This document shows, one piece after another, positions 31,205-64,000 of a stretch of 64,000 nt of DNA. Source of the stretch: a virus; IMG/VR virus record IMGVR_UViG_3300045988_103544, positions 18,803-82,802 of that record. One strand, given 5' to 3'. Position 1 is the stretch's first letter; every line of letters starts with the position of its first letter. The position numbers were made by a program, and so were the translations under genes. The notes below the pieces were generated by a model. The model saw nothing but the letters and a program-made list of their open reading frames with translations. It was not told the DNA's origin and did no database searches.

Positions 31205-32758
31205 TTATACATTTACATTGGTGTTTTCTACATCGCCATTAACGTTAACATTCTTGTTAACCTTAGCATCAATGGTGTTAGCCTTCATAATGTCTGCCAT
31301 ATCTACACCTGTGGCATCTTTTACAATGTCACGAGTCTGCTTAATAATAGCAGGCACATTACCAGAAATACCAGAAGCCTCAGAGCCATTAGTTCCATAA
31401 ACTGTCATATTACCAATCTTACTCATAGGTTCAGCAATATACTTAGCCATATCAGGAAGAACTTTCTCATTAAGTTTAGAAAGCATGTCAATTACAGCAA
31501 TAGAACCATACTTACTATATGCTTCAGCCTTCTTCTGCATAGCCTCAGCTTCTGCAAGACCCTTAGCCTTCACACCTTCAGCTTCTGCCAAAAGTTTAGC
31601 TTTAGTACCTTCAGCTTCTGCAGTCAAGGTCTGCTGAGTAGCATATGCTTCAGCTTCACCCTTAGCACGAATACCTGCTGCCTCCTGCTCCTGAGAATAA
31701 CGATTAGCTTCAGCCTTAGCTTTTACAGCCTTAGCAGTTTGCTCTGCTTTATAAGCTTCAGCCTCAGCCTCACGCTTCTGCTTCTCCAAAGCAGCCTGAG
31801 CATCAATTTCTGTCTGATACTTGTCAGCATCAGCCTTAGCATTTACATCTGCAAGATACTCATTCTGCTTAATCTTAATCTTCTCCTCAGACAAGGTCTG
31901 TTCCTTACGAGTCTTCTCAATATCAGCATCTACAGTCTTGATATTAATAGTTTTCTGCTGCTCTTGCTGCTGAATTTCATATGCGGCATCAGATTCAGCC
32001 TTCTTAATATCAGATAATCTCTTCAGTTCAGCTCTCTTAATAGCTAATTCATTATTACGTTCAGCAATAATGGTGTCAGCTTTTACTCGTGCTTCATTAG
32101 CCTCATTGTCAGCCTCAGCCTGAGCCTTAGCTACATCTCTATCAGCATTAGCACGGGTAATCTTAGCATTCTTCTGAATAGCTGCTGTATTATCAGCTCC
32201 CAAATCACGGATCAAGCCTTTCTCATCAGTAATATTCTGAATATTGCAAGACAAAATCTCAAGACCTAACTTAGCCATATCAGGAGCTGCCTTCTTCTGA
32301 ATTTCATCAGAGAATGCATCTCTATCAGTGTTAATCCTAATCAAGTCAAGAGAACCTACTACTTCACGCATATTACCTTCCAAGGAATCTTTCACCTGAG
32401 CAGCAATCTGAACAGAATTCATATTCAAGAAGTTCTTAGCTGCAAGTCTAGTGCCTTCTGTATCAGGTTTTACCCTAACTTTACATACGGCATCTACCAT
32501 TACATCCAAGAAATCATGAGTAGGAACTGGTTGTGAAGTCTTAACATCAACTGTTACTTGACCAAGATATACTTTATCTAATCGTTCAAGTACAGGAATT
32601 TTTACTCCACCACCACCGATAAGTACTCGTGGCTCCTTACGAAAACCTGAAAGAATATACGCCATCGAAGGAGGAGCTTTAACATACATTGTAGCAATAA
32701 TAACAAGCAGTACAATAATAACGACTGCGATAACACCAATAAAAACTAAATGTTCCAT
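31205..32758 (-). CDS. SPFH/band-7 flotillin-like membrane protein
   Basis: N-terminal TM helix, SPFH-like core, then a long Ala/Glu/Lys coiled-coil (AEAEAYKAEQTAKAVKAKAEA...) typical of flotillins. Confidence 0.6.
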   Translation of the reverse strand: MEHLVFIGVIAVVIIVLLVIIATMYVKAPPSMAYILSGFRKEPRVLIGGGGVKIPVLERLDKVYLGQVTVDVKTSQPVPTHDFLDVMVDAVCKVRVKPDTEGTRLAAKNFLNMNSVQIAAQVKDSLEGNMREVVGSLDLIRINTDRDAFSDEIQKKAAPDMAKLGLEILSCNIQNITDEKGLIRDLGADNTAAIQKNAKITRANADRDVAKAQAEADNEANEARVKADTIIAERNNELAIKRAELKRLSDIKKAESDAAYEIQQQEQQKTINIKTVDADIEKTRKEQTLSEEKIKIKQNEYLADVNAKADADKYQTEIDAQAALEKQKREAEAEAYKAEQTAKAVKAKAEANRYSQEQEAAGIRAKGEAEAYATQQTLTAEAEGTKAKLLAEAEGVKAKGLAEAEAMQKKAEAYSKYGSIAVIDMLSKLNEKVLPDMAKYIAEPMSKIGNMTVYGTNGSEASGISGNVPAIIKQTRDIVKDATGVDMADIMKANTIDAKVNKNVNVNGDVENTNVNV

Positions 32759-34150: not shown

Positions 34151-34185
34151 TAAAAACAAATAATAAAAAACAGTTCTATGAACTA

Positions 34186-34515
34186 GTGGAGCATTGGAGA
34201 GTCGAACTCCAGTCACTCCGATTTGCATCAAAACGTTCTTACAGCATAGGTTTTAAAGACTATCCTTGTCTGTTAGGGTTGACAAGATTAATATTGTCAA
34301 CTTCCACCACTCTGTTCCTAAAGTATACAGAGAACTAATAAAGAAATGAAAAATAGTGCACCTTTCTGTTCCTAAGCAAGTGCTGCTCGACTTATTAGGC
34401 AGCAGCCTGATAAGCAGGAGTCATATTGATAACTCTAGCGATTATTGTTTTGTTGTCTCTCCAACTGTCTTGCTGTGTTTCTTATCTCCTCGAAGTTCAA
34501 AACCACGAATGCCCC
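34186..34515 (-). ncRNA. ssrA: tmRNA (SsrA-like), ~330 nt
   Basis: 5' end GGGGCAT pairs with 3' ATGCTCC-A, including the G3.U70 alanine identity pair. T-arm GGAGTTCGACTCTCC. Internal tag-like frame ...ARVINMTPAYQAAA followed by TAA TAA. Confidence 0.6.
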
Positions 34516-43149: not shown

Positions 43150-43254
43150 CTTAAACAAAAGGATTCGAACCTTTAATCCTCAAGAAATATTTAACGACGA
43201 CTTTAGAGGCGCTTCCGTCAATCTACTGCCGTATACCAATTCCGCCATATTTAA
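43150..43254 (-). ncRNA. 104-nt tRNA-like element carrying a CCTCTAAAG (CUCUAAA) loop motif
   Basis: Canonical T-arm AAAGG-TTCGAAT-CCTTT and 7-bp terminal pairing TTAAATA/TGTTTAA, but too long and no canonical anticodon stem. TTAAATA occurs twice, suggesting insertion/duplication. Confidence 0.25.
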
Positions 43255-43339
43255 TTAGCTTATAATCTGAACTATATTAATTTTATGAGAATTAGCATTA
43301 CCCGAATAGCACCACGTGGAGGTTTCTCATTTGCTATTC

Positions 43340-43490: not shown

Positions 43491-43850
43491 CTACAATTGT
43501 TTTAACATGTTTGTAGCTATATGTAATGAAATATCCACAGTTGTATGAATATCATCATTTAATTTTAAGATATATGTATTGTTTTCATCATTCTTTCTAG
43601 TTATTTCAGATATGTATTTATGATTTATCAAAAATCCTTGTGTTGCAAGAATAAAATCAATACATAAAACATGTGTAATATCTTTTAATGAACAACACAC
43701 ATCAGTTTTATAGCCATGAACATCTATTATAGTACTATATTTACCAGATGTTTTTATACATACAATGTCATTTATGTTTATCTGTCTGTACTCTCGTCCC
43801 TTAAACACTAAAAATGTATCAGAGTCAATCTGTATTGTTTTTATTTCCAT
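43491..43850 (-). CDS. hypothetical protein (119 aa)
   Basis: Minus ORF. Confidence 0.4.
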   Translation of the reverse strand: MEIKTIQIDSDTFLVFKGREYRQININDIVCIKTSGKYSTIIDVHGYKTDVCCSLKDITHVLCIDFILATQGFLINHKYISEITRKNDENNTYILKLNDDIHTTVDISLHIATNMLKQL

Positions 43851-44757: not shown

Positions 44758-44791
44758 TAGCACTAGCGATGCTTGAAATCGCCTTTCCACT
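44758..44791 (-). tRNA. 3' half (anticodon-stem 3' strand, T-arm, acceptor 3' strand) of a tRNA gene split by the HNH insertion
   Basis: AGTGG-AAAG-GCGAT-TTCAAGC-ATCGC-TAGTGCT-A; pairs with the 5' half at 45542-45575. Confidence 0.45.
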
Positions 44792-45498
44792 TATTTATTT
44801 TCTAATATTAATTCTCTTAATTCTTTTTTAGTATGGGGTATACCATAATTTTTACACCATTTTCCAATGGTATTATCAGTAACTCCATACATTTCCCCTA
44901 TTTTAGTGAAAGGGTATTCTTTTATTAAACTTAATAGTTTTTCTTTATCAGGTCTATCTTTAGGATCTACTTTAAATTGGTTTCTGTGTTTTACAGCACA
45001 TTTTATACAGTATGTAGAACCTCTAGATATTTCTTTTCCACAATCTTTACAATAGTTTATATTTTTTAATTTTTTAGTACCCCAATTATCAGTTTGAGAA
45101 TGACAATTTGGACATAATATCTATAAGTTCTCTAATCTATTATCATCATGTTTACCATTAATATGATGTAATTGATAAGAGATAGGATTATCTAACCAAT
45201 ATCCATTCTTACAAGGACATTTAGGATTTTCACATTCATTCTTTTTAAGACCTTCTTTAATTAGTCTCTTTAAAAGATTGCTAGATTTATAATTACATCC
45301 ATCTACTAAAATATCTTCTAAGCTTTTAGCTTTTACTATATCTCTTTTATTTAGAAAGTGATATTGTATTCCGTAACTATTTAAAGTTTCTTCTAAAACT
45401 TTTATAGCTGAACCGGAAACTGATTTACCTAGATGCCTTAATACATCACTTAAACTTGTAGATTTATTTACAATTTCCTATAATTCTTCTTTACTCAA
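44791..45498 (-). CDS. HNH homing endonuclease, paralog of 54798-55616; uses TAG as a sense codon (2 in-frame TAG); probable TTG start
   Basis: Continuous frame ...KLSKEEL(TAG)EIVNKSTSLSDVL...SYQLHHINGKHDDNRLENL(TAG)ILCPNCHSQTDNWGTKK... ending TAA. The second TAG sits where the paralog has ENLRFLCPNCH and many HNH proteins have ENLQ. No long ORF in the track here. Confidence 0.6.
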
Positions 45499-45541
45499 TT
45501 TATTATTAATTTAATTATTGTTTAATATAATATCTTTTAAA

Positions 45542-45575
45542 TAAGTGGCGTCCTAACCAGCTAGACGATAGTGCC
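45542..45575 (-). tRNA. 5' half (acceptor, D-arm, anticodon-stem 5' strand) of the split tRNA gene
   Basis: GGCACTA-TC-GTCT-AGCTGGTTA-GGAC-G-CCACT. Acceptor GGCACTA pairs with TAGTGCT and anticodon stem CCACT with AGTGG in the 3' half ~770 nt away. Confidence 0.45.
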
Positions 45576-45770: not shown

Positions 45771-45840
45771 TGGAGATACGTGGAATCGAACCACAATCTC
45801 AGGATTTTCATCGTGCTCTAACCTTTTGAGCTATATCTCC
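45771..45840 (-). ncRNA. tRNA-like element (70 nt) with canonical acceptor, D and T arms but no foldable anticodon arm
   Basis: GGAGATA/TATCTCC acceptor, GCTC/GAGC D-stem, T-arm TGTGG-TTCGATT-CCACG; middle ACGATGAAAATCCTGAGAT does not form a 5-bp stem/7-nt loop. Confidence 0.3.
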
Positions 45841-45948
45841 ATAGCCCACATTTCTATAAAGGAGAATAGTGGTAACACCTACCTATACTAATAAATTTAT
45901 TAGTCAGGATTTATCTAAACACACTAACAATATATCAAATTAAATTTG

Positions 45949-46032
45949 TACGGTAGAAAGGATTCGAACCAATGACCTTCTCGAAATGACCTATTATAAA
46001 AAGAGATGCTCTAACCACTGAGCTACTACCGT
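45949..46032 (-). ncRNA. tRNA-like element (84 nt) with enlarged 20-nt anticodon-region loop
   Basis: ACGGTAG/CTACCGT acceptor, GCTC-AGTGGTTA-GAGC D-arm, T-arm ATTGG-TTCGAAT-CCTTT; central stem TCTC/GAGA encloses TTTTTATAATAGGTCATTTC. Confidence 0.35.
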
Positions 46033-46087: not shown

Positions 46088-46486
46088 TTAAAAGCCGAAT
46101 GAAAACATGGTATCTGCGGAAGTACTAAGAGTTACGTAAGGAATTTTATTTCTTACTGTAATAAAGACAATAAAGCGTCTTCCTGTATTAACCTCTCCGC
46201 AATTATGGATTTCTACTCCATCCTTCATTTCAGAAGAGTATATTTTTAATACCATTTTACCAAACTTACTATTACTAAAAGTAATAGTTTTTCTAGCTTC
46301 ATTATATACTACTGAAGTTTTAATATATAATGGGTCACTCCATTCACCATCTTGATAAACAGTGATAGAACCATAATTAAACGCATGAGCTATTGTAGTT
46401 AATACAATAAAACTCATTAATAAAATAATCTTTTTCATATTACTCAATCTTTTTAATGTTAGTACGGAGTAAAGGATTCGAACCAA
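46088..46486 (-). CDS. secreted hypothetical protein (132 aa)
   Basis: Signal peptide MKKIILLMSFIVLTTIAHA. Confidence 0.45.
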   Translation of the reverse strand: MVRILYSVLTLKRLSNMKKIILLMSFIVLTTIAHAFNYGSITVYQDGEWSDPLYIKTSVVYNEARKTITFSNSKFGKMVLKIYSSEMKDGVEIHNCGEVNTGRRFIVFITVRNKIPYVTLSTSADTMFSFGF

Positions 46487-46543
46487 TATAACCTCTCTAT
46501 GAATTGTGGAAATGAGGCGCTCTAGCCATTAAGCTAACTCCGC
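46463..46543 (-). ncRNA. tRNA-like element (81 nt) with enlarged 20-nt anticodon-region loop
   Basis: GCGGAGT/ACTCCGT acceptor, D-stem GCTT/GAGC, same unusual T-arm ATTGG-TTCGAAT-CCTTT; stem GCCTC/GAGGT encloses ATTTCCACAATTCATAGAGA. Confidence 0.35.
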
Positions 46544-53948: not shown

Positions 53949-54341
53949 AATCTTAATGTTTAATTGTTATTAATTTTTTGTTTTGTTTTTTGACTAAATA
54001 TGGTGGGGGGACTAAGGAGGTAGTCTACTCCCTCCCACATAATAAAAATTAATTTTTAAATTTTAACCTCATCCTACTTACTTACAAAAATTCCTATTTT
54101 TTAAACCCCAGGGGGCTATATAAAATCTTCTCTAAAAAAATTTTAAAATTTTTATTTTAATTTCTTAGAATATTAACTTTTACAAAAATTAACTTTTAAT
54201 ATTCTCTACCTCGACTATATTACTCGTGTAATCAAAAAGAAATATTAAATGAATAAAGAACAACTAATACAAAGTATTAAAGACCTTCCTGATTAGTATA
54301 ATATAAATTTATAGGTTATTGATAATGTAATTCATATAACC

Positions 54342-54551
54342 ATGACTAAAAAGGTAGATGAATTTGAAGAATATTGTAGTAAATTAGATGATGAAACATT
54401 TAACAATGCTTGTCTAATATTTGGAATTATCTCAGATATATCTTTAGAAGATTTTTCTTCTAATTTAGATAATTCTAAATATAAAAAATATAAACAAGAA
54501 TTTAAACACATAGTGGATTTTTTAAATGATAGAAACATTACAAAAAATTAA
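54342..54551 (+). CDS. hypothetical protein (69 aa)
   Basis: Plus ORF at the start of a plus-strand unit. Confidence 0.4.
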   Translation: MTKKVDEFEEYCSKLDDETFNNACLIFGIISDISLEDFSSNLDNSKYKKYKQEFKHIVDFLNDRNITKN

Positions 54552-54738
54552 TAAGATAGTTCCTAATCTTACAGTATCTCAATTAATAGAACTAGTAAAT
54601 ATTATTAATGGACCTAAATTAACTATAGATAATATGGTTTTAAAAGATATACCACATAACGGGTTTATTTCAATAGACACTAGTGATAATAAAACTACTT
54701 CTACTGAAAATCCTTTTAGTGTTAGTAGTTATCTATAA
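54526..54738 (+). CDS. hypothetical protein (70 aa)
   Basis: Plus ORF overlapping the previous one by a few codons. Confidence 0.4.
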   Translation: MIETLQKINKIVPNLTVSQLIELVNIINGPKLTIDNMVLKDIPHNGFISIDTSDNKTTSTENPFSVSSYL

Positions 54739-54747
54739 AGATAATAC

Positions 54748-54782
54748 TCTCCTATGGTGTAATGGTTAGCACAGAAGACTCT
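54748..54782 (+). tRNA. 5' exon of intron-containing suppressor tRNA (predicted anticodon CUA after splicing; Gln-type U1-A72)
   Basis: TCTCCTA-TG-GTGT-AATGGTTA-GCAC-A-GAAGA-CTCT, ending on U (a group I 5' splice site follows a U). Confidence 0.6.
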
Positions 54783-55785
54783 TAAAAATTTTAAAGTATG
54801 GAAAATAAAATTTATAAACTTACGGATAAAGAGTTTTCAGACTTAGTTAAGTCAAGTCTGAATATCTCAGAAGTTTTATTTAAACTTGGATATACTACTG
54901 TTGGAAACAGTTGGGGATATTCACAAGTTAAACAAAGAATGCAAGATTTAAATTTATCAGGTAAAGATTTTAGAGGCAAATCAGCTATAGTCGACTGTAA
55001 TGAAAAGAAAGAAATAGATGCTTCTAAATTATTATGTGAAAATTCAAAACACGCACGTAATATATTAAGAAGCTATATATTAAGAAACAAATTACTTCCT
55101 TATACATGTGCAATATGTGGAATTACAGAATGGCAGGGTAAGACTTTATCTCTAGAATTAGACCATATTAATGGTGTAAATAATGATAATAGAATAGAAA
55201 ATCTAAGATTTTTGTGCCCTAATTGTCATAGTCAAACCACTACTTATGGTGCTAAAAATAAACAAAAAGTAGAATCTAAATACGAACTTTCTGATGAATT
55301 AAAGAATTTAATTATTAGTTCTTATATAGAATTAAAAAATCAAAAGAAAGTTGCTGATAGATATAATTTAAATCCTAAAGCAGTAAAACAAGTTTTATCA
55401 GAAGCTGGATTAACTAAACAAAATCAAAAGTATGTTATACAATATGACTCTTCTCATAATGAAATAAGAAGATTTGGGTGTATAGCAGAATGTTGTCAAT
55501 GGTTAATGGATAATAATTTAGTAACTACTAAATTAATGAAAACTTGTAGAGCAACTCTAAATAGAAATGTTGGCATTCTTTGGAAAAACTATTACTTTGA
55601 AATATTGGATGCTTAAAGGATAATCCATAATCTTTAAGTAGAATCTCTTTTAATCGACTTGGAAGCGTATATACTTAGTATAAAGTGACAGGGCGCAAGT
55701 TTAAATACAGCGTGAACGACTAAATAAAGAGACTGGTCCTAGGACTGGATGTGATAGTCTAATCCTCTACAGAGGTGTTAAAATG
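54783..55785 (+). mobile_element. Group-I-like self-splicing intron (~1003 nt) in the tRNA anticodon loop, carrying an HNH homing endonuclease ORF
   Basis: Starts 15 nt before the HNH ORF. The 3' 170 nt are GC-richer and structured, with R-like (AACGACTAAATA) and S-like (GATAGTCTAATCC) group I core elements. The last nucleotide is G (55785), as expected for omega-G. Confidence 0.5.
54798..55616 (+). CDS. HNH homing endonuclease (intron-encoded)
   Basis: 272 aa, standard code; HNH motif LELDHINGVNNDNRIENLRFLCPNCHSQ; paralog of 44791-45498. Confidence 0.7.
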   Translation: MENKIYKLTDKEFSDLVKSSLNISEVLFKLGYTTVGNSWGYSQVKQRMQDLNLSGKDFRGKSAIVDCNEKKEIDASKLLCENSKHARNILRSYILRNKLLPYTCAICGITEWQGKTLSLELDHINGVNNDNRIENLRFLCPNCHSQTTTYGAKNKQKVESKYELSDELKNLIISSYIELKNQKKVADRYNLNPKAVKQVLSEAGLTKQNQKYVIQYDSSHNEIRRFGCIAECCQWLMDNNLVTTKLMKTCRATLNRNVGILWKNYYFEILDA

Positions 55786-55822
55786 AAATCTTTTAGCCAG
55801 GGTTCGAATCCTTGTGGGAGAA
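55786..55822 (+). tRNA. 3' exon of the suppressor tRNA
   Basis: AAA-TCTTT-TAGC-CAGGG-TTCGAAT-CCTTG-TGGGAGA-A. Pairs with the 5' exon (acceptor TCTCCTA/TGGGAGA, anticodon stem GAAGA/TCTTT). Spliced loop is CTCT+AAA = CUCUAAA. Confidence 0.6.
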
Positions 55823-55823
55823 C

Positions 55824-56105
55824 ATGATAGCAGCAATTTATGAATTAAATGGTAAGATTTTAAAAACAACTAATCTTACTAAAAAATTAAAACGATTAAA
55901 ATCAGAACCTAAGATTCTATTTCAATTAGAGAATGGAACAGAAGCTGATTTAGACCAATGGATTAAAGACAACCAAAATATAAATTCTAATTCAGAAGAA
56001 GATATAGAAATTAAAAAATATCATTATAGAAATCCAATTACAGGATATACAATGACTTCTATATATGATAATCTAGATGTTAATGGTTATATAAAAATTG
56101 ATTAA
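55824..56105 (+). CDS. hypothetical protein (93 aa)
   Basis: ATG right after the tRNA 3' end; the track entry 55812-56105 uses an upstream TTG inside the tRNA exon. Confidence 0.45.
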   Translation: MIAAIYELNGKILKTTNLTKKLKRLKSEPKILFQLENGTEADLDQWIKDNQNINSNSEEDIEIKKYHYRNPITGYTMTSIYDNLDVNGYIKID

Positions 56106-56263
56106 TGACTAACAAAGAATTAAAAGACTTAAAGTCTAAAATGAACAAAGTACTTAATGAAGTACAGTAGATTATTGATACTATAGGAGATAATGATTTA
56201 CAAGATAATCAATTAACTCTTGATTTTTGCGATAAGTTAAATGAATTATCTGTTACTTATTAA
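56105..56263 (+). CDS. small hypothetical protein with one in-frame TAG (recoded)
   Basis: MTNKELKDLKSKMNKVLNEVQ(TAG)IIDTIGDNDLQDNQLTLDFCDKLNELSVTY then TAA. Confidence 0.4.
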
Positions 56264-56294
56264 TAAATATTTGGGGATGGATATTTATTAATTT

Positions 56295-56336
56295 TAAAAA
56301 AAATAGCCGAGGCTTCTCATTTGAGAAACTTCGGCT
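56295..56336 (-). terminator. Rho-independent terminator at the end of the minus-strand late operon
   Basis: Minus-strand hairpin AGCCGAAG...CCTCGGCT followed by T8. Confidence 0.55.
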
Positions 56337-56345
56337 ATTGTGGTA

Positions 56346-57485
56346 TTATTGCTTTATATATAAAAAATTTCCTCCACCAGTATTCTAAGCATCATATTTT
56401 AATAAATCATCTCTGGTAAATATTTTATCAAAGGTTCTTAATCCTGAATGATAAGTTCCATTATCTAGAGTATATAAATCTACTGTTTTAACATTATTTC
56501 TAGATTTCATAGCTTCTATCTCATCTCTAATATTATCTATACTTCCGGAAACTAAACGAATTTCTTTACCAGCCTATATAATTATTCTTCCTCCAGCTAT
56601 AGAACCATATTCATCAGTTCTATTATTATTAGCTAAAAAATTTAGTCTGTTATTTACAGATTTACCATTTACTATAGCATTTAATATAGGACTTTTTCTA
56701 GAACCATTAGAATTACTTTCCATGAATAATACATTACCTTTAGAATCTGTTTTAAAACCAGTAACAGTATTTTTATATATTGGAGAAATCATACTTCCAT
56801 TAGGAATATCTGAATATTTACCAAAAACAAATTTACCAATAGAATCTATACCTATATAATTCTAATTATTAGGAGATATACTTTCTTTAGATTTGAAATT
56901 AGAAAAAGCAGTAATAGGAGCTGCTATACTATTTATAGGAGTATAATCACCTCTATTTCTATAACCAAAAGTATGCTTTGTTAAATTTATGGATTCTGGT
57001 ATACGATATCTTCTAGAGTTTATTTTAGTAGTATCATTTATAGTATAACTATTTGGAGATATTTCTATTTCTAAATTTTCTCTCCCCTTATTTTTAGTTA
57101 CTTTTTTATTAGGAATTTTAATTCTTTTACTAGTATGCTCAGGTTCTGAATCAAAAAATAACTATAGTTTTCTACTTAATCCATTTCCTACTAAATTAAT
57201 CAACTATTTACCACGTTCCCACATTGTTTCTTCTTTCTATTTAGAAGTAGATATTTTTTTAGCAGTGGGCATTTCTTTATATTTTGCCGGGTGGTATACT
57301 AAAGTAGATGTTGGTTTATAGGGATCTACTCCTTTAGCCTAAACCTATGGAAATATTATACTATTAGCTTTATCAGAATTAATTTTAAAAGGAATCTTAT
57401 TTGATTTTCTTCTACCATACAACTACCCATCTTCATACCAGTAATCATATATTGAATCATTATCAGTAATTACCTATACAGCCAT
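56346..57485 (-). CDS. late protein L8 (~379 aa), TAG-recoded (~11 in-frame TAG)
   Basis: Continuous frame from ATG 57485 (MAVQVITDNDSIYDYWYEDGQ...) through ORF 56574-56792 to ...KYDAQNTGGGNFLYIKQ then TAA at 56346. Only TAG interrupts it. Confidence 0.55.
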
Positions 57486-58606
57486 GGTGTTATTATTATT
57501 ACTGGAGTTCCTAATTTATCTAATATTTTTAATCCTAACACAGCTTTACTGTCTAAATCATATGAACTCCATTTCTACTTATATTCATTAGGATTAAACT
57601 TCCAAATATCTTGTGCCCTATACACTTTCTTACCATTAGATGTTCCTTCCTAAACTAAATGTCCAGCAGCATCAACTCCATTATCTCCAAAGTCTAGATT
57701 ATTATTAGCACCTTTCCAAGGAGTTTTATTAGTTATATTAGAAGCTTTCTGCATAGGTTTCTTAGTAAAGAAATCTAAAGTTTCAGTATTTTCATATACA
57801 GGAATATCTTTATATGGATATATCTTTCTTATATAGTTCTCATGTGGACCATAATCTACATTTATTTTCTTTACTCCATAAGAAGGATTTATAGTTTTAT
57901 TATATAAATAAGCATCAATCATATCATTACCTTTAGCTGCTTTCTAAAATCCAGTATATGCTTCAGGAGCATAGGTATTGTAACCTACACCAGTTGATAT
58001 ATAAGACAATACTCCAGCATGCTTTTTAGGACTTGCTTTATGCATATTATATACTATGTCTTCTATAGGATTAGCATTATTAGAAGTTCTCATAGCTACT
58101 TCTACTCCACGTTTTAAAGGAGCTTTTACAGCATATCCTATTGCAGGAAGCATTACTAAATAATTACTAGCTTTAGTTGGATTCTTAGATATATCTAAAG
58201 CACCTTTAGTATAATCATATACTGCCTAAGCAGCTGGAGCTAAAGCATAACCTATTCCTGAATTAACTAATGCTTTAATAGGACTAGTATTATTATTCCA
58301 ACTATCTACTTCTCTAGCATAAGCTCCTTTTATAGGATGGGTTCTATTCTTATTACTATAATTATATAATTTAGAATGAGTATGTCCTCCCTATTTTATA
58401 GTCCCTCTATTATCTACAAATACATCTTGTACCCCATTTAAAGTTCTAACTGGAATAACTCTCTACTAATATTTAGCACCAAGATATGGAGATTTAAATC
58501 TAAGATGATTTAGTCTATTATAATATTCCATATCTATAGCCATCTATTTATTCCGAGTATTATTATTTACTCCTTTATTTTGTTTACTTTCATCTACTAT
58601 TGGCAT
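57470..58606 (-). CDS. late protein L7 (~378 aa), TAG-recoded
   Basis: ATG 58606 (MPIVDESKQNKG...) runs continuously through track ORFs 57944-58153 and 57650-57922, joined by TAGs, to TAA at 57470. Confidence 0.5.
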
Positions 58607-58608
58607 AT

Positions 58609-58824
58609 TTATACTTTATTTTTCCATATACTAGTTATACTATCTATACCTAGTAATCCCATACAACAATATAAAACTGTATCTATCATATCAGGAGCTT
58701 GTATCTAACTAATAGAACAGTATATTAGAATAATTAAACTTACTATCCATCCTAATATTCCACATACTCTTTTACTACTTATTCCAGTATGTGCTGTTAT
58801 TAATTTAATTAAAAACTATTTCAT
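58609..58824 (-). CDS. small 2-TM membrane protein (holin-like, 71 aa), TAG-recoded
   Basis: MK(TAG)FLIKLITAHTGISSKRVCGILGWIVSLIILIYCSIS(TAG)IQAPDMIDTVLYCCMGLLGIDSITSIWKNKV; its ATG overlaps the upstream TGA stop (ATGA). Confidence 0.4.
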
Positions 58825-59959
58825 TTCTAAGAATTATTTAAGAACGGTAAACTCATACCTATAGGTGCTGCTATTTTGAATACATTAGGATCTAACTTAG
58901 GAATAGTTAATCTAGAATCTCGTAATATATTTCCAGTTATTCCTTTAAGAGGTATTCTATTCCTTTTCATATTAAGTGGAATTAAAAAATCCTCATTTAT
59001 TTCATACTCAATATTAGGATAATTACCTATTATATTAGAAGCTTTATACTAGTTAAGCTACGTTTTTGGTATATCTATATACTATAATTCTATAGGATTG
59101 TCAACTCCTTCTTTTATAGCTTTTCTTCGAGTATTAGAAGCATATATTAATGTTTTTCTTGGGTTATCAGTAAACCACATTCCTGTATATTTAGCTGTCC
59201 CATCCGGAGATGGAGTAAATTTACCATTAGTACCAGAAGCTCTATATAATCTCACCATACCCTAATCTAATTTAGGTTTCTAAAATATTCCTACTTCAAT
59301 AGGTTCTTTAGTTCCTTTCATAGTAAGTTGTCTAGTTTCATTCTAGATAAATCCAAAGTCTTTACCAAATCTATTTATACCATGAATACCTCCTTTAGAT
59401 ACAGAACCCCAAGTAGAGAGATTAGCACCTTCAGGTACTTCATCTGCAACCTTAGCAAATAGCTACATTTTATTACCATAGCTTAAACCATTTCTATCTG
59501 TTTTAAAATGAACTGAATAATTATTAGGTTCAGCATCCTTTACTAGTCCAAATCTTTGATTAGGCTATTGTTTAAAGAAATAAGAAGTAGCTTCATTTCC
59601 TTCAGCTTTTCTAGTACTCCAAGCTTTTCTAGTAGGTCTGTAATAAGATAACTGCATAATAGGATTATCTCCTGTTGTGTATTCTTTAGCAGCTAAGTTA
59701 TTAGTAATTCCTTGAGATACATTTCTAGTTAAATTTCCAGCAGTCTCATTAAGTAAACTATTTCTTGCCCAATGTGAAACTGTATTCTAACCCATCTTAG
59801 AGAGTGCTATTTTACCTAAACCTAATCCTAAATTTCCTGCAGCAATTCCTACTACAAATTCTCCTACTGGATCTGCTCCTGACATAGCTCCTGCTTGAGG
59901 ATTAGTACTAGTTTTAGTATTTCCATACTAATCTTTTACTGTAACTATCTCACTATGAG
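58821..59959 (-). CDS. late protein L5 (~379 aa), TAG-recoded (~13 in-frame TAG)
   Basis: ATG 59959 MPHSEIVTVKDQYGNTK...GGIHGINRFGKDFGFIQNE...LPFLNNSQK ending TGA 58821; possible longer N-terminus upstream. Confidence 0.45.
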
Positions 59960-60262
59960 GCATACTCCTCTTAGCTAAAGCTAATCTTTCTTTAATTGGT
60001 AGATTATTATATTTAGCTTTTAAATTTTTAGCGGCAGGCTATAATCTATTTTTTAAATTAGTAGGATTAAGAATTCCTCTAGATTGAGTATTTCTAGTTA
60101 TTTCTTAATCCTACTTAGATTGTTGCCACGGTAATCCAGTGGTTTTAAAATTTAATTTACCTGTTTTCTAATATTTAGATATCCATTTCATATCTCTTTA
60201 AATATTTATCCCATAACTATTTATCTCTCTCACTTACAAAATCTAAAAATCTTTGTAATTCC

Positions 60263-60778
60263 TCAATCTTTTCTGTCAAAATATATGTATCCATTATTAT
60301 TTTTATTGGGTTTTAAATTAAATCCACTACCTTTAGTTTTAGTAACATACAATGTTGGGAGAACATTAGCTCCATCATAAACTACTTTAGTTCCGCCATT
60401 ATTATAGTCATAATCGGAACCTAGATAGTCCATAGTATAATCTAAAGGCTAACCACTATTAGGTTTTATATATTGATCTTTACTTAAATAATATATCTTA
60501 TTATCTTTACTCCAAGATTTATCTCCTAAATCTGGATAAGTCGGATGAGTTTTAGTTTTATAAGTCCCTGAAGCTCCTTCATCAGGAAAATGCCCAGTAG
60601 GAATATACCTATTCCAATTATGTGCTAGAATACTGTTTAACTATAACCAAGCTACTATAGGTTGGTCATTATAGTATTTTCTATAATCGTAATGGTCTTT
60701 AGATAAATCCTAATTACCCCATGCTTGAGATAACTATTTACTCCAAATATTATAATTATTATTATTTATTTCTGGCAT
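60263..60778 (-). CDS. late protein L4b (~171 aa), TAG-recoded
   Basis: MPEINNNNYNIWSK(TAG)LSQAWGN(TAG)DLSKDHYDY...YFDRKD ending TGA; start overlaps the upstream gene end. Confidence 0.45.
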
Positions 60779-61406
60779 GTATATCAATAATATTAGGTAT
60801 AATCTAAATAGGTAACTATATCTTAGGACTTAATTTAATAACATCATTTGCTATTATAGTATTCCTTTTAGCTACCTATTCTAAATAAGATCTATTTAAT
60901 TCCTAGTTCAACTTAGATGTGAAGTATGAACCTTGACTTGGTCGAACTCCTTTTTTAGCTAATTTTTTAGTAGTTTCTTTTTTCTACTAATTTAATACTA
61001 CGTCGACTTGTCTCTTCCGCATAGCATTAACTCTTGGAGAATGATGTTTAGGGTAATAACCAGGTTTGTGTACGCTAGATCTAAGAAAATTAGAACCTCC
61101 CTTAGCTAAAGCTGATGCAAATTTAGCTCCTAATATATCTGCCCCAGTTTCCAAAGTATTTCATACGGCATTTCCAAAATTACTTGGGGATTCTTTAAAA
61201 GTCTTGTACCATCCTCTACCAGCTTGATAACCATCTATAACTAAAGAAGGCAACTAACCTACTCCAGCAATAATTCCTCCTATAGGAGCACCTACAGCGG
61301 TAGTACTTATACCTGCACCTAGTCCTAAACTACCTAAAGATATAGCTGCCGCGGTAGGTTCCCATTTATCTACTTGACGATCCAATTCTTCAAAAATTTT
61401 AGGCAT
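60762..61406 (-). CDS. late protein L4, Gly-rich membrane-like segment; TAG-recoded, plus one in-frame TGA
   Basis: MPKIFEELDRQVDKWEPTAAAISLGSLGLGAGISTTAVGAPIGGIIAGVG(TAG)LPS...FGNAV(TGA)NTLETGADILGAKF...; ATG overlaps the TAA of the upstream gene (ATGCCTAA). Confidence 0.4.
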
Positions 61407-62201
61407 TTCTAAATTTATTTATATATTTTGCAACACTAGTACCATTGGCATCAGACCCTCCTGCAATACCATACTTATAATAATTTTTAGTCCATTTTGG
61501 ATTTAACCATGATGCTGCTATAGCTTCTCCAGTAGCTGCTATACCATTATTTCTTAAAAATCTTGCATTATCATCATATAATTGTGATGCGGCTAATACT
61601 TGTGCATCAGGACTATTTTTAAACTGTTCTCTAGATAAATTAGAATATTTATTTCTAGTACTATCTATAAACTAGAACCATCCAGCAGCAGAACTATTTT
61701 TAGACTAAGCTTTAGGATTAAATCCTGATTCTAGAGAAGCTATTTTCATTAAAGTAGTTTTCTTGTTTCCAGTGATACCATATTTATCTAAAGTTTGTTC
61801 TAGTATCTTTTTACTTTTACTAGGGTTAGACTAAGCTTTAGGATTAAATCCTGATTCTAGAGAAGCTATTTTCATTAAAGTAGTTTTCTTGTTTCCAGTG
61901 ATACCATATTTATCTAAAGTTTGTTCTAGTATCTTTTTACTTTTACTAGGGGTATTATGATTTAATTTAAGCTGAGTATATTTATATTGTACAGGTTCTT
62001 TAGCTTTATTAATAGAAAAATATCCATCTAAATTTAAACCATTAATATGAAAATCTCCAGTATTTAATTCAGGAATATACTAATATTGTTTAGGAGTAAA
62101 ATCTAAATCTAAACCTTTACTTTTTAGTACTTCTGTAGCAGGCTTATCAGGAATATCTAAAGCTTCATATTTAAAATATTCACTCATAATTTTATCAAAC
62201 C
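61399..62201 (-). CDS. Lytic transglycosylase (SLT domain) protein, TAG-recoded (5 in-frame TAG), with a 42-aa tandem duplication
   Basis: MSEYFKYEALDIP...KIASLESGFNPKA(TAG)S...SSAAGWF(TAG)FIDSTRNKY... TAG falls on the conserved Q of the SLT GLMQ motif. ES catalytic motif present. Confidence 0.6.
61702..61953. repeat. Perfect 126-bp tandem duplication (2 copies) inside the SLT gene
   Basis: AGACTAAGCTTTAGGATTAAATCCTGATTCTAGAGAAGC...TTACTTTTACTAGGG occurs twice back to back with period 126; duplicates 42 aa including the ES catalytic motif. Confidence 0.8.
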
Positions 62202-62429
62202 ATTATGTATTTTAGAATGACAATTTTTACAAACACAAACTGTTTGAGATAATTCTTTAATAAATAAATCTGTAGGTATATGACTTACAGCTTGTGATAT
62301 ATTAAATAATTTTTCTCCAGTATGATGAAATTCTAAACAACATTTAGCTGATTCACCACATATTATACATTGTGTTTTATGTTCATTTAAAATCTTTTTA
62401 TTTTCTTTATAATATTTATTCTTACGCAT
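62184..62429 (-). CDS. Small HNH endonuclease (81 aa), standard code, inserted between recoded late genes
   Basis: CIICGESAKCCLEFHHTGEK...CVCKNCHSKIH zinc-finger/HNH motif; no in-frame TAG; overlaps both flanking recoded genes. Confidence 0.6.
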   Translation of the reverse strand: MRKNKYYKENKKILNEHKTQCIICGESAKCCLEFHHTGEKLFNISQAVSHIPTDLFIKELSQTVCVCKNCHSKIHNGLIKL

Positions 62430-63186
62430 AACTAGAATAATTACCAGGCTAATTAAAATTAACTAAAGCTAATGGTCCTAATCCTTTAGTAGCTCTATAA
62501 TAATTAATTCTTTTCTTTACCCCAGGTCTTGTAAGTAATAAATCTTTTCTGTAACCATTATAGCCTTTTTCAGAGTTATACATGTACTTAGCATTTTTTT
62601 GTATTCCATCATAGTACTACTAAAAATTCTAGGCTTTAAGTGAGTCTGGATACATTCTACTATGCCAATTAATTAGATGGTCTGCAAAAGATTGTGCATT
62701 AGGATATTTTTTATCATCTCCAGTAGCGAATCCAGTCCAACCTTTTTCTGCAACCTTTTGGTTAGTTAAATCTAAAGCTGCCTGTGGGGTAACTCCTTTA
62801 TCTACTAAAGCTTGATATATCTAAGTCACATTATTATATTGACTCCTAGTTCCAGGCATCTTACCTGCTAACTACATTTTAAGAATAGTGCCTCCATTAG
62901 CATGTTTCCATTTAGCAGCATTTCTAGCAAAATTAGCTCGACGTTTTTGTAAAGGAGTAGCATTAGGATTATTTAATACAGATTTAGCATGCTCCTGTAC
63001 AGATTCTCCAGCTGCTTTAGCTGAGGCAGTAAACTTACCCTTATTTTTATCTTTTATATGAATAGTATCTTTTCTATCTTTTATCTATCCGCCTTTCTTT
63101 AGTTTATTTATAAAACTATACTGATTTTTAATCTTAAAATCCTAATAGGCAGAACAAATTCTTTCTTGTAATTCAGAATTAGTCAT
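62422..63186 (-). CDS. late protein L1 (~254 aa), TAG-recoded (6 in-frame TAG)
   Basis: ATG 63186 MTNSELQERICSAY(TAG)DFKIK...KGG(TAG)IKDRK...ILKM(TAG)LAGKMPG... ending TAA 62422. Confidence 0.5.
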
Positions 63187-63189
63187 AAT

Positions 63190-63332
63190 GTAATAAATAA
63201 GATTAAAATACTTTTGAATATAAATAACCTATATATATACTTAAATAGTACAAAATAATAATAACTTTACCTATTAAATATAGTAATAATGTTATTATAG
63301 ATAACATATATATAAATATTACTTATAGTAAT
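63190..63332. promoter_or_regulatory. AT-rich divergent intergenic region between minus- and plus-strand recoded late genes (probable bidirectional late promoters)
   Basis: ~140 nt of >85% AT between divergent ATGs at 63186 and 63333. Confidence 0.3.
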
Positions 63333-64000
63333 ATGAAAAAAATTGTAATGGTTATTTTAGATTATTTAAAAAAATTATGGAATTTTATTTCCAACTTAAC
63401 TTCAGAAACTAAAACTATAATTATTTTTGTATTATTAATATTTATACTAAATCCAATTCCTAGAAGTTATTATGAAGAAACTCTTTCTAGTGCTTTAAAA
63501 AAATAGAAAGAAGAATTACGTAAAAAAGAAGATAATGGATTTAAACAAGCTCCTTATATAGCTTAGTGTATTGATAATATAAAAATAAAAGATCCTGATT
63601 GTAGTAATGTTTTGCTATTAAGTTATCATAATACTAAGCATAGCTTACAGGGTTTTAGTTATATTTATTTAGATTGTATAAGAGAAAGTGTAAAATCATA
63701 TTCTGATGAATATGTCGGAGATTATTGGCAGACTTTATAGTATACTAATTACCAAGAAGAATTAAGTAAAATTGATGATACTGCTTATTTAAGAGTTGAT
63801 AGTCTTCCTCAAATTAAAAACACTTTCCCTAGATTATATAAAAAGTTAGAATAGAGTGGGGCATACTCAGCTGCTTTATATCCTATAGAAGGAGTTAGAA
63901 ATCCTATAGGAATAATAGTAGTTTTGTATAAATAGCCTAAACAATATGAGTTAGGTTATTATAATACAGTTATTTCTCCACAAATTCAACGATTATCTAC
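63333..64000 (+). CDS. plus-strand late membrane-anchored protein, TAG-recoded, partial (runs off window end)
   Basis: MKKIVMVILDYLKKLWNFISNLTSETKTIIIFVLLIFILNPIP...ALKK(TAG)KEELRKK... at least 7 in-frame TAG and no other stops to the window end. Confidence 0.45.

What the first reader, a model, noticed from the sequence alone, without database searches (positions are those of the whole stretch)
56105..64000. Late lysis/virion gene block uses TAG as a sense (Gln) codon
From 56.1 kb to the window end the six-frame track has almost no ORFs. Yet the minus strand (and the plus strand from 63333) reads as continuous, overlapping, phage-like genes once TAG is translated. At least 9 genes of 70-380 aa appear, joined by ATGA and ATGCCTAA start/stop overlaps, each carrying 2-13 in-frame TAG and ending in TAA or TGA. 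In the SLT-domain gene, TAG occupies the invariant Gln of the GLMQ motif (SSAAGWF-TAG-FIDST). In the recoded HNH paralog at 44791-45498, TAG sits where HNH proteins have ENLQ-LCxxCH. TAA and TGA are still used as terminators. Genes upstream of 54 kb contain no in-frame TAG. The block begins immediately after the suppressor-tRNA locus. This is the stop-codon recoding of late genes described for some crAss-like and Lak-type phages, supported here by motif-level evidence for Gln.
Basis: seen in the sequence. Interest (0 to 1): 0.9.

Follow-up and report, generated by a model that had tools for sequence, protein, structure and literature searches.

The report
Phage late genes read TAG as glutamine
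[quoted passage not shown] That kind of recoding is already documented, but here the tRNA gene that reads TAG is itself split by a mobile intron.

Summary
Under the standard code, ORFs of at least 100 aa cover 13% and 0% of the bins at 56-60 and 60-64 kb. With TAG read as sense they cover 89% and 94%.

The recoded frames are real genes:
- The same TAGs are kept in relatives.
- Differences between relatives concentrate at third codon positions.
- One gene has an SLT lytic-transglycosylase domain.
- In a 96%-identical relative the block continues into terminase and portal genes.

TAG most likely means glutamine:
- TAG interchanges with CAA/CAG far more than with any other codon.
- It aligns with the Q of GWFQF in phiKZ gp144.
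- The closest homologs of a TAG-containing HNH have Q at both TAG positions.

This is the known late-gene amber recoding of crAss-like phages, so it is a new member of a known kind.

New details:
- The suppressor tRNA(CUA) gene at 54748-55822 is split between anticodon bases U35 and A36 by a 1003-nt insert encoding an HNH endonuclease. ARAGORN and Rfam both miss it. Relatives carry the same tRNA intact, or with a 219-223-nt ORF-less group-I-like intron at the same site.
- Two genes in the block carry extra in-frame stops unique to this sequence: TAA where relatives have TAG, and TGA where they have TGG.

The parts
54249..54551 (+). Small gene (100 aa) at the head of the plus-strand cluster that carries the suppressor tRNA. 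It has two in-frame TAG.
   Evidence: Both TAG are conserved as TAG in 14-15 relative HSPs.
54748..54782 (+). 5' exon of the suppressor tRNA(CUA). It runs from the acceptor stem to anticodon positions C34-U35 and ends ...GAAGACUCU.
   Evidence: Exact match to the 5' half of the intact tRNA(CUA) of relatives.
54783..55785 (+). 1003-nt insert splitting the anticodon between U35 and A36. It is inferred to be a self-splicing group I intron ('type A').
   Evidence: Relatives have the two exons contiguous (L004-L010). Identical 1003-nt inserts occur in L001, L013 and L015. The exon ends in U and the insert ends in G, and there is an AGACU/AGUCU pair resembling P7. Rfam does not recognise it.
54798..55616 (+). 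Intron-encoded HNH endonuclease, 272 aa, with no in-frame TAG.
   Evidence: Pfam PF01844 HNH, E=1.1e-5, 26 bits, cut-off 21.4.
55786..55822 (+). 3' exon of the suppressor tRNA(CUA). It runs from A36 to discriminator A73.
   Evidence: The joined exons fold as a cloverleaf, and ARAGORN calls the joined sequence a tRNA with anticodon cta.
55824..56105 (+). ORF of 93 aa directly after the tRNA, with no TAG. Function unknown.
   Evidence: No Pfam match.
56105..56266 (+). Small ORF (52 aa) with one in-frame TAG.
   Evidence: The TAG is conserved in 14 relative HSPs.
56346..57485 (-). Recoded gene, 379 aa, 10 TAG. Function unknown.
   Evidence: No family match.
57470..58606 (-). Recoded gene, 378 aa, 8 TAG. 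Function unknown.
58609..58824 (-). Recoded small hydrophobic protein, 71 aa, 2 TAG. Possibly holin-like, by inference only.
   Evidence: Weak match to the membrane-protein family phrog_1322, E=0.003.
58821..60191 (-). Recoded gene of 456 aa with 14 TAG. It also has an in-frame TAA at 60105-60107.
   Evidence: Public homologs of 456 aa, 90-96% identical, are already translated with Q at the TAG sites. The TAA site is TAG in 12 of 12 relatives.
60263..60778 (-). Recoded gene, 171 aa, 4 TAG. Function unknown.
60762..61406 (-). Recoded gene of 214 aa with 7 TAG, a glycine-rich hydrophobic N-terminal region, and an in-frame TGA at 61161-61163.
   Evidence: It is a single 214-aa ORF in L001. The TGA site is TGG in 6 of 6 relatives.
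61399..62187 (-). Recoded SLT-domain lytic transglycosylase, 262 aa, 4 TAG. It contains an exact 126-bp tandem duplication at 61700-61951.
   Evidence: Pfam SLT E=4e-12. Alignment to phiKZ gp144 puts a TAG on the Q of GWFQF. Duplication found.
62184..62429 (-). Short HNH-motif ORF, 81 aa, with no TAG. It lies inside the recoded block.
   Evidence: PHROG HNH endonuclease families, E=4e-13.
62422..63186 (-). Recoded gene, 254 aa, 8 TAG. Function unknown.
63333..64000 (+). Start of the divergently transcribed recoded gene block. At least 221 aa with 5 TAG; it runs off the window.
   Evidence: In L001 this strand continues for 20 kb with split terminase, portal (46 TAG) and other TAG-rich genes.
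44791..45510 (-). HNH endonuclease ORF with 2 in-frame TAG. It lies inside a disrupted tRNA-Glu gene (halves at 45550-45575 and 44760-44780).

Best explanation
The window comes from a large, divergent crAss-like phage, probably of the 'Zeta' type with a genome of about 145-225 kb.

Layout:
- The first 54 kb is a replication and nucleotide-metabolism block written in the standard code.
- From 56.1 kb onward, two divergent blocks use TAG as a glutamine codon. One runs on the minus strand from 63186 to 56346. The other runs on the plus strand from 63333.
- TAA and TGA remain the terminators in these blocks.

The decoder is a phage tRNA with anticodon CUA, encoded at the junction of the two regimes (54748-55822, plus strand). 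In this genome that gene is split between anticodon bases U35 and A36 by a 1003-nt mobile insert carrying an HNH homing endonuclease gene.

Proposed mechanism:
1. Before the suppressor tRNA accumulates, host release factor 1 stops ribosomes at the many TAGs. Only the TAG-free genes are made, including the intron's endonuclease.
2. The tRNA precursor is transcribed and the insert removes itself by group I self-splicing. This rebuilds the CUA anticodon.
3. The tRNA is charged with glutamine and the late genes become translatable. These include the transglycosylase, small membrane proteins and, further along, terminase and portal.

Shown here:
- TAG is a sense codon in conserved genes.
- Gln is the best-supported meaning.
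- The tRNA exons, the insertion site and intron-less alleles exist.

Inferred:
- self-splicing of the insert;
- charging with Gln;
- the early/late timing.
For: Recoding:
- ORF coverage rises from 0.13/0.00 to 0.89/0.94.
- There are 59 in-frame TAG in 2283 codons.
- 252 of 289 aligned TAG positions are TAG in relatives.
- Substitutions are in excess at third codon positions in all ORFs.

Glutamine:
- Of the window's TAG sites that vary among relatives, CAA or CAG is the alternative at 7 sites; no other residue exceeds 3.
- 11 of 47 Gln sites are TAG in a relative.
- Codon pairs: TAG with CAG 262 and CAA 244, against AAA 39 as the next. Q pairs with TAG 6.7% of the time, W 0.9%, all others 0.2% or less.
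- GWF-TAG-F aligns with GWFQF of phiKZ gp144.
- The closest HNH homologs have Q at both TAG sites.
- Counting TAG as Gln brings Gln content to 4.6%, from 2.0% for CAA/CAG alone.

Early versus late:
- Upstream genes are primase, DnaB, helicases, exonucleases and NAMPT.
- In L001 the block extends into terminase and portal.
- The portal is related to crAss-like portals.
- An early gene ends in TAG where 7 HSPs in relatives have TAA.
- Five of 6 early genes that end in TAG have TAA or TGA within 0-9 codons.

tRNA:
- Intact tRNA(CUA) genes occur in relatives.
- The exact exon halves are in the window.
- The joined exons form a cloverleaf and ARAGORN calls them a tRNA with anticodon cta.
- In IMG/VR, 4 contigs carry an interrupted allele and 21 other contigs carry the intact one. 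No contig appears in both lists.

Intron:
- The exon ends in U and the insert ends in G. It encodes an HNH ORF.
- A second, ORF-less 219-223-nt intron sits at the identical site in L012 and L014. It gives a full-length but sub-threshold alignment to Rfam group I (RF00028, 16.8 bits, E=0.055).

Literature:
- PMC7886860 and PMC12386605 describe TAG-to-Gln late-gene recoding and dense introns in Zeta crAss-like phages.
- PMC9523058 reports proteomic proof of TAG=Q in two crAss-like phages.
Against: - The 1003-nt insert gives no Rfam group I match, even when its 3' 200 nt are searched alone.
- I could not draw a complete P1-P9 structure for it. The best candidate P1 has U-A rather than the usual U-G pair at the splice site.
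- The suppressor tRNA is not visibly derived from the phage's own tRNA-Gln(UUG), at 55% identity. Its Gln identity rests on codon comparisons only.
- Only 64 kb of a genome of perhaps 160-180 kb was seen, so another suppressor could exist elsewhere.
- Timing of expression was not measured.
- Two genes in the block have in-frame TAA or TGA that this model does not explain.
- At the HNH motif, R is as common as Q across distant homologs.
Confidence: 0.85

Rival explanations
1. TAG is a sense codon throughout infection, a genome-wide code 15. Early genes merely avoid it, so there is no temporal code switch.
For: - Most early ORFs that end in TAG have a back-up TAA or TGA within 0-9 codons, so read-through would be harmless.
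- A TAG-containing gene (54249-54551) sits upstream of the tRNA in the same small cluster.
- Timing was not measured.
Against: - TAG is absent from inside the replication genes, while it is the majority Gln codon (59 against 45 CAA/CAG) in the late block. That contrast suggests selection tied to expression class.
- One early gene ends in TAG exactly where 7 HSPs in relatives have TAA, so TAG acts as a terminator there.
- Published analyses of crAss-like phages report the same early/late split (PMC7886860; 10.1101/2021.08.26.457843).
Confidence: 0.12
2. The intron-split tRNA(CUA) gene is dead. TAG is read by a different suppressor: one encoded elsewhere in the unseen part of the genome, one from the host, or the tRNA that ARAGORN calls tRNA-Stop(UUA) at 45948-46032 reading TAG by wobble.
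For: - The insert is not recognised as a group I intron by Rfam.
- A paralogous HNH ORF sits in a tRNA-Glu gene whose anticodon loop cannot be restored by removing the insert, so this HNH family can destroy tRNA genes.
- ARAGORN calls a tRNA with anticodon UUA.
- Only 64 kb was examined.
Against: - Both exons are identical to the intact gene of relatives, and the joined product is a perfect cloverleaf.
- Four independent contigs keep the interrupted allele with intact exons and an intact ORF. None of them has an intact copy matching the 31-nt probe, and two of them are 159 and 180 kb long.
- An ORF-less intron with a group-I-like core occupies the same site in other relatives.
- The anticodon of the 'UUA' tRNA is ambiguous: the T-run is 4 or 5 long among relatives, and position 37 is U.
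- An ochre suppressor would also read through TAA, the main terminator here.
Confidence: 0.12
3. TAG is read as an amino acid other than glutamine, such as Tyr, Lys, Trp or Glu, or as a mixture.
For: - A few TAG positions align with TAT, AAA, TGG or GAG/GAA in relatives.
- At one HNH TAG position, E (58) is more common than Q (39) among 120 homologs.
- tRNA identity elements were not tested.
Against: - Q is enriched more than 7-fold over the next residue and more than 30-fold over the rest.
- CAA needs two base changes from TAG, yet is as frequent a partner as CAG. That points to selection on the amino acid.
- A TAG aligns with the Q of the GWFQF motif.
- Proteomics in related phages found Q (PMC9523058).
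- GlnRS is known to accept CUA-anticodon tRNAs (established knowledge: supE, su+7).
Confidence: 0.04
4. The block consists of decayed pseudogenes or of assembly or sequencing errors, and the TAGs are real stops.
For: This sequence does carry two unique in-frame stops (TAA at 60105, TGA at 61161) and an exact 126-bp duplication. These could be errors or defects.
Against: - The same TAG positions are conserved in more than ten independent contigs.
- Substitution patterns show purifying selection.
- Only TAG interrupts the frames, never in a random mix with TAA and TGA.
Confidence: 0.01

Closest known systems
Zeta-group (and Beta/Delta-group) crAss-like phages with TAG-to-Gln recoding of late genes (Yutin et al. 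2021, PMC7886860; Zeta crAss-like phage study 2025, PMC12386605)
   Same: - Human-gut phage. Relatives are contigs of 144-225 kb.
- The portal is distantly related to crAss-like portals.
- Early genes use the standard code; late genes are full of TAG.
- There is a phage tRNA(CUA) and many tRNA genes.
- Introns, an intein-like insert and homing endonucleases are frequent.
   Different: The suppressor tRNA gene itself is interrupted by an intron with an HNH ORF, so ARAGORN and the Rfam tRNA model miss it. Both papers note recoded genomes with no detectable suppressor tRNA and leave this unexplained. I found no mention of split suppressor genes in them.
Genetic code 15 phages (Lak megaphages, crAss-like and others): Borges et al., bioRxiv 10.1101/2021.08.26.457843; Peters et al. 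2022, PMC9523058
   Same: - TAG is read as Gln.
- Recoding is concentrated in structural and lysis genes.
- A suppressor tRNA is encoded by the phage.
- The proposed role is blocking late-gene translation until the suppressor is present.
   Different: No proteomic or expression data exist for this genome. The decoder here needs RNA splicing.
Group I introns in bacterial and plastid tRNA anticodon loops, such as cyanobacterial tRNA-Leu(UAA) (my own knowledge, not checked in the paper library)
   Same: - The insertion is inside the anticodon loop, directly after a U.
- The intron ends in G.
- Intron-less alleles exist at the same site.
- A small ORF-less form of about 220 nt occurs in relatives, with recognisable P7-type elements.
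   Different: - It is in a phage and in a nonsense-suppressor tRNA.
- The window's version carries an HNH endonuclease ORF starting 15 nt into the intron.
- The window's version is not recognised by the Rfam model.
Lak megaphage tRNAs with 'enigmatic introns' (Devoto et al. 2019, PMC6784885)
   Same: Recoded gut phage whose tRNA genes carry extra sequence. This window also has tRNAs with short 11-13-nt inserts.
   Different: The Lak inserts are short and of unknown nature. The insert in the suppressor gene here is 1 kb with an endonuclease gene.
Theta (HDV-like) ribozymes next to phage tRNAs, often suppressor tRNAs (Kienbeck et al. 2024, PMC10879173)
   Same: - A weak HDV-like match abuts the 3' end of tRNA-Leu(UAA) at 43285-43339.
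- The same motif directly follows the intact tRNA(CUA) in relative L004.
   Different: In the window the suppressor tRNA is followed by an ORF, not by this ribozyme. RNA processing of the suppressor would here be intron removal rather than 3' cleavage.

Membership tests
Phage stop-codon recoding, code 15 (TAG to Gln), late-gene type | Conserved protein-coding genes contain many in-frame TAG and are intact only if TAG is read as sense | tested here: met
Phage stop-codon recoding, code 15 (TAG to Gln), late-gene type | TAG positions correspond to Gln in homologs | tested here: met
   Q is enriched more than 7-fold over any other residue.
Phage stop-codon recoding, code 15 (TAG to Gln), late-gene type | Phage-encoded suppressor tRNA with anticodon CUA | tested here: met
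   The exons lie at 54748-54782 and 55786-55822. The joined product is called tRNA(cta). The gene is split, so function depends on unproven splicing.
Phage stop-codon recoding, code 15 (TAG to Gln), late-gene type | Recoding confined to late (structural or lysis) genes, with early genes compatible with the standard code | tested here: met
   By gene content only: a replication block upstream; SLT in the block and terminase and portal in L001; TAG used as a terminator in an early gene. Expression timing was not testable.
Phage stop-codon recoding, code 15 (TAG to Gln), late-gene type | The other two stop codons keep terminating | tested here: met
   All block genes end in TAA or TGA. Two in-frame exceptions are unique to this sequence.
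Phage stop-codon recoding, code 15 (TAG to Gln), late-gene type | Gln found at TAG positions in the proteins themselves | not testable with these tools
   This needs proteomics. It has been done for other crAss-like phages (PMC9523058).
crAss-like phages (Crassvirales), large 'Zeta'-type | Hallmark proteins (portal, terminase) related to those of crAss-like phages | tested here: met
   The portal of the 96%-identical relative L001 matches annotated portals of crAss001, the cr-series phages and IAS virus at 24-30% identity. No phylogeny was made.
Group I self-splicing intron in a tRNA gene | Precise insertion, with an intron-less allele at the same site | tested here: met
   The exons are contiguous in L004-L010 and in 21 IMG/VR contigs. 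They are interrupted at the same phosphodiester bond in 4 contigs plus the window and L001.
Group I self-splicing intron in a tRNA gene | U before the 5' splice site and G as the last intron base | tested here: met
   ...GACUCU|UAAAAA ... AAAAUG|AAAUCU.
Group I self-splicing intron in a tRNA gene | Conserved catalytic core (P3-P9, with the G-binding site in P7) | tested here: inconclusive
   - Window insert: no Rfam hit. Only an AGACU/AGUCU pair and hairpins were seen by eye.
- ORF-less intron of relatives: full-length RF00028 alignment, but 16.8 bits against a cut-off of 50.
Group I self-splicing intron in a tRNA gene | Homing endonuclease ORF, where the intron is mobile | tested here: met
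   HNH, PF01844, E=1.1e-5.
Group I self-splicing intron in a tRNA gene | Self-splicing activity | not testable with these tools
   This needs an in vitro splicing assay or RNA sequencing.
Ochre (TAA) suppression by a tRNA(UUA) | tRNA with an unambiguous UUA anticodon, and in-frame TAA enriched at sense positions in genomes that carry it | tested here: not met
   - The anticodon loop varies (T4 or T5), position 37 is U and the stem has a mismatch.
- In-frame TAA at Gln/TAG sites occurs in 7 contigs, but only 3 of them carry this tRNA.
- Per transition opportunity, TAA at Gln/TAG sites is about as frequent as TGA at Trp sites (my estimate).

The most novel reading that the evidence does not exclude
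The tRNA that switches this phage from the standard code to the TAG=Gln code has to be assembled by self-splicing of a mobile intron that cuts its anticodon (CU|A). The splicing step would then act as an RNA-level timer or checkpoint on late-gene translation, not merely as a tolerated parasite. Split suppressor genes of this kind would also account for recoded phage genomes in which no suppressor tRNA can be found.
Probability: 0.15. Interest if true: 0.7.

Novelty: new member of a known kind. Interest (0 to 1): 0.4.

Why it matters
The recoding itself confirms, for one more lineage, something already described and proven by proteomics in related phages. Its practical value is for annotation. 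Under the standard code this 8-kb block, and at least 20 kb more in the close relative, look empty.

The added point is the split suppressor gene. Two tRNA finders, ARAGORN and the Rfam tRNA model, miss it. Published surveys of these phages report recoded genomes without a detectable suppressor. Searching for tRNA halves around endonuclease genes may fill some of those gaps.

It also gives a concrete experiment: does the code switch depend on intron splicing?

Tried and rejected
- **Family searches for the block proteins.** Pfam and PHROGs found only SLT and HNH. Six proteins have no family even after TAG was replaced by Q and the gene models were corrected.
- **Rfam on the window's tRNA insert.** No group I match in 54600-56000 or in 55600-55800 alone. 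I tried to draw P1-P9 by hand and with RNAfold and could not complete it.
- **Origin of the suppressor.** I compared it with the phage's other tRNAs. It is no closer to tRNA-Gln(UUG) (55%) than to others, so this is uninformative.
- **Ochre suppression.** I considered that the in-frame TAA at 60105 is read by the tRNA that ARAGORN calls Stop(tta). Rejected as unsupported, for three reasons. The anticodon is ambiguous. There is no association between that tRNA and in-frame TAA among relatives. TGA at Trp sites is about as frequent.
- **The HNH ORF at 44791-45510 as a second self-splicing tRNA intron.** Rejected. The ORF fills the insert and the tRNA-Glu anticodon loop is not restorable.
- **Sigma-70 promoter and terminator scan of 54-64 kb.** No enrichment over shuffles.
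- **TAA-sense and TGA-sense translations.** TGA gives no gain. TAA lengthens ORFs everywhere in this AT-rich sequence, so it is not specific.
- **Not attempted:** structure prediction of the unknown proteins. The listed homologs are all at least 90% identical, which makes a shallow alignment.

Full report
**1. The observation**

I listed ORFs under four codes. With the standard code, stop-to-stop ORFs of at least 100 aa cover 0.13 and 0.00 of the last two 4-kb bins (56-60 and 60-64 kb). The rest of the window scores 0.42-0.99. Making TAG a sense codon raises those two bins to 0.89 and 0.94 and hardly changes the others. Making TGA sense does nothing.

The TAG-sense ORFs form a chain of overlapping genes on the minus strand from 63186 down to 56346. 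A plus-strand gene starts at 63333. Ten of these ORFs hold 59 in-frame TAG in 2283 codons. In the two other frames TAA+TGA make up 5% and 14% of codons. Open runs of about 380 codons are therefore not chance, at roughly 1e-9 by my arithmetic.

**2. Are they genes?**

The window has a 96%-identical relative in GenBank, MT835539.1, from human faeces and unannotated. It also has relatives among IMG/VR contigs of 94-225 kb.
- At the window's TAG positions the relatives have TAG in 252 of 289 aligned cases.
- Differences between relatives fall mostly on third codon positions in every ORF.
- One gene has an SLT lytic-transglycosylase domain (Pfam E=4e-12). One is a short HNH ORF.
- The remaining proteins match no Pfam or PHROG family.
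- In the relative L001 the recoded region continues for 20 kb more. It contains a terminase large subunit split by an endonuclease-bearing insert, a portal with 46 TAG, and other TAG-rich genes.
- That portal is 24-30% identical to annotated portals of crAss001, the cr-series phages and IAS virus.
- The first 54 kb of the window encodes primase, DnaB-like helicase, helicases, exonucleases, NAMPT and similar proteins in the standard code.

**3. What TAG means**

Site by site, 19 of the 59 covered TAG sites vary among relatives. The alternatives are CAA at 4 sites and CAG at 3; no other residue appears at more than 3 sites. Conversely, 11 of the window's 47 Gln sites (23%) are TAG in some relative. 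The figures for other residues are 4 of 140 for Tyr, 4 of 239 for Lys and 1 of 28 for Trp.

I then made an all-against-all comparison of 183 recoded ORF segments. TAG pairs with CAG 262 times and CAA 244 times. The next codons are AAA (39) and TGG (34). The fraction of aligned residues facing TAG is 6.7% for Gln, 0.9% for Trp and 0.2% or less for the rest (pair counts are not independent events). CAA is two changes away from TAG, so its frequency points to selection on the amino acid.

Two further lines agree:
- In the SLT gene, 'SSAAGWF-TAG-FIDST' aligns with 'SSATGWFQFLTGT' of phiKZ gp144, PDB 3bkh.
- In the HNH ORF at 44791-45510, the two TAG columns hold R65/Q49 and E58/Q39 among 120 homologs.

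The public protein collection already holds 456-aa homologs of one block gene translated with Q at these sites. Existing pipelines therefore already treat this lineage as code 15.

**4. Code use in early genes**

Among early minus-strand ORFs, 52 end in TAA, 17 in TGA and 6 in TAG. Five of the six TAG-terminated ORFs have TAA or TGA within 0-9 codons. The gene at 43491-43850 ends in TAG where 7 HSPs in relatives have TAA. TAG therefore behaves as a terminator there. This fits a switch between early and late translation rather than one code for the whole genome, although timing was not measured.

**5. The decoder**

ARAGORN and the Rfam tRNA model find no tRNA(CUA) in the window. ARAGORN does find one in seven related loci, 1-5 kb from the block. 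Its two halves are present in the window with no mismatch, at 54748-54782 and 55786-55822, separated by 1003 nt.
- The break lies between anticodon bases U35 and A36.
- The joined exons fold into a cloverleaf, and ARAGORN calls them a tRNA with anticodon cta.
- The insert encodes a 272-aa HNH endonuclease without any TAG (PF01844).
- The exon ends in U and the insert ends in G.

The same 1003-nt insert, 98-99% identical, is in L001, L013 and L015. L012 and L014 instead have a different, ORF-less insert of 219-223 nt at exactly the same site. That one aligns over the full length of the Rfam group I model, but below threshold (16.8 bits, E=0.055). By eye it shows P1 with a U-G pair, then P2, P3, P5, P6, P7, P8 and P9.

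Exact-pattern scans of IMG/VR found 4 contigs with an interrupted allele and 21 with the intact one. No contig appears in both lists.

The window's own insert is not recognised by Rfam, and I could not complete its structure. Calling it a group I intron is therefore an inference. It rests on five things:
- the splice-site bases;
- a P7-like pair;
- the endonuclease ORF;
- the intron-less alleles;
- the fact that heavily recoded genomes keep it with perfect exons.

**6. Mechanism proposed**

- Early on, host release factor 1 terminates at TAG, so only TAG-free genes are made.
- The tRNA precursor is then transcribed from the small plus-strand cluster at 54.2-56.3 kb. The insert splices out and the CUA anticodon is formed.
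- The tRNA is charged with Gln. GlnRS is known to accept CUA anticodons, as in supE and su+7 (my knowledge).
- The late blocks then become translatable.

The recoding, the Gln assignment and the gene anatomy are shown. Splicing, charging and timing are inferred.

**7. Comparison with what is known**

Late-gene TAG-to-Gln recoding with phage suppressor tRNAs is described for crAss-like phages. Within them, the Zeta group has 145-192 kb genomes and many introns and inteins (PMC7886860; PMC12386605). It is also described across other gut phages (10.1101/2021.08.26.457843). Metaproteomics confirmed it (PMC9523058).

Both crAss papers note recoded genomes with no detectable suppressor tRNA. Neither they, nor my four full-text searches, turned up an intron-split suppressor gene. 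That library is incomplete, so this is not proof of novelty.

My verdict is a new member of a known kind, with one new anatomical detail.

**8. Extra in-frame stops**

The 456-aa gene has TAA at 60105-60107 where 12 of 12 relatives have TAG. The 214-aa gene has TGA at 61161-61163 where 6 of 6 relatives have TGG. Both are G-to-A changes.

I tested whether TAA might be read by the tRNA that ARAGORN calls Stop(tta) at 45948-46032.
- Similar TAA-at-Gln/TAG sites occur in seven contigs, but only three of them carry that tRNA.
- Its anticodon loop varies in length among relatives.
- TGA at Trp sites is about as frequent per opportunity.

Plain nonsense variants or sequence errors are the simpler reading.

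Noticed in passing
window 60105-60107 (-) and 61161-61163 (-): Two in-frame stops that are not TAG sit inside recoded genes. One is TAA where 12 of 12 relatives have TAG. The other is TGA where 6 of 6 relatives have TGG. Both are G-to-A changes unique to this sequence. They could be real nonsense variants, errors or tolerated read-through. Three different relatives have TAA within the first 30 codons of the same 456-aa gene.
   Followed up: partly
window 45948-46032 (-): ARAGORN calls a tRNA-Stop with anticodon tta. It has a 13-nt insert (TTCGAGAAGGTCA) that is absent from the copy in L024. It also has a run of 4 or 5 T in the anticodon loop among relatives, U at position 37 and a stem mismatch. 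The anticodon could be UUA or UAU. I found no evidence that TAA is recoded.
   Followed up: partly
window 44760-45575 (-): The tRNA-Glu(UUC) gene is split. Its 5' half is at 45550-45575 and its 3' half at 44760-44780, with an HNH ORF (44791-45510, two in-frame TAG, no ATG) filling almost the whole gap. The normal loop CTTTCAA cannot be restored, and there is no room for a ribozyme. L040 has the same allele without the ORF, with a 26-nt loop. Intact copies in relatives show compensatory changes in the anticodon stem.
   Followed up: partly
window 43285-43339 (-); L004 about 14580-14636 (-): An HDV-like ('theta'-type) ribozyme candidate starts directly at the 3' end of tRNA-Leu(UAA): RF02682, 26 bits, cut-off 44, E=0.004. 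The same ACCTCCACGTGGTGCTATTCGG motif directly follows the intact suppressor tRNA(CUA) in relative L004. Compare PMC10879173.
   Followed up: partly
window 34184-34515 (-): Phage-encoded tmRNA candidate. ARAGORN gives the tag ARVINMTPAYQAAA. Rfam RF00023 aligns full-length at 44.4 bits (cut-off 47), E=3e-16.
   Followed up: partly
window 46463-46543 (-), 45771-45840 (-), 43150-43254 (-): These are further irregular tRNA-like genes that the Rfam tRNA model finds but default ARAGORN misses. One has an 18-nt anticodon loop. One is a Phe-like tRNA with a 6-nt loop (the L001 copy is a normal tRNA-Phe). One is a 105-nt tRNA-like sequence. They resemble the 'enigmatic' tRNA inserts reported in Lak phages, PMC6784885.
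   Followed up: no
window 61700-61951: An exact 126-bp tandem duplication (2.0 copies, 100% match) lies inside the SLT gene. It duplicates 42 aa including the catalytic ES motif. The L001 homolog is 42 aa shorter. This could be a recent duplication or an assembly artefact.
   Followed up: partly
window 62184-62429 (-): An 81-aa HNH-motif ORF without any TAG is embedded between recoded genes, overlapping both neighbours. It matches only the C-terminal part of HNH endonuclease families.
   Followed up: no
L001 24808-26751, 29562-34322: In the close relative, a 647-aa TAG-free exonuclease carries an internal segment matching intein-bearing terminase families. The terminase large subunit is in two pieces separated by a 316-aa endonuclease ORF, phrog_4645.
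   Followed up: no
window 20651-22696 (-), 31205-32758 (-): Unusual early-region cargo: a nicotinamide phosphoribosyltransferase fused to a phosphatase-like domain, and an SPFH/flotillin-domain protein.
   Followed up: no
window 43491-43850 (-): An early gene ends in TAG exactly where 7 HSPs in relatives have TAA. TAG therefore serves as a terminator in the standard-code part of the same genome.
   Followed up: yes
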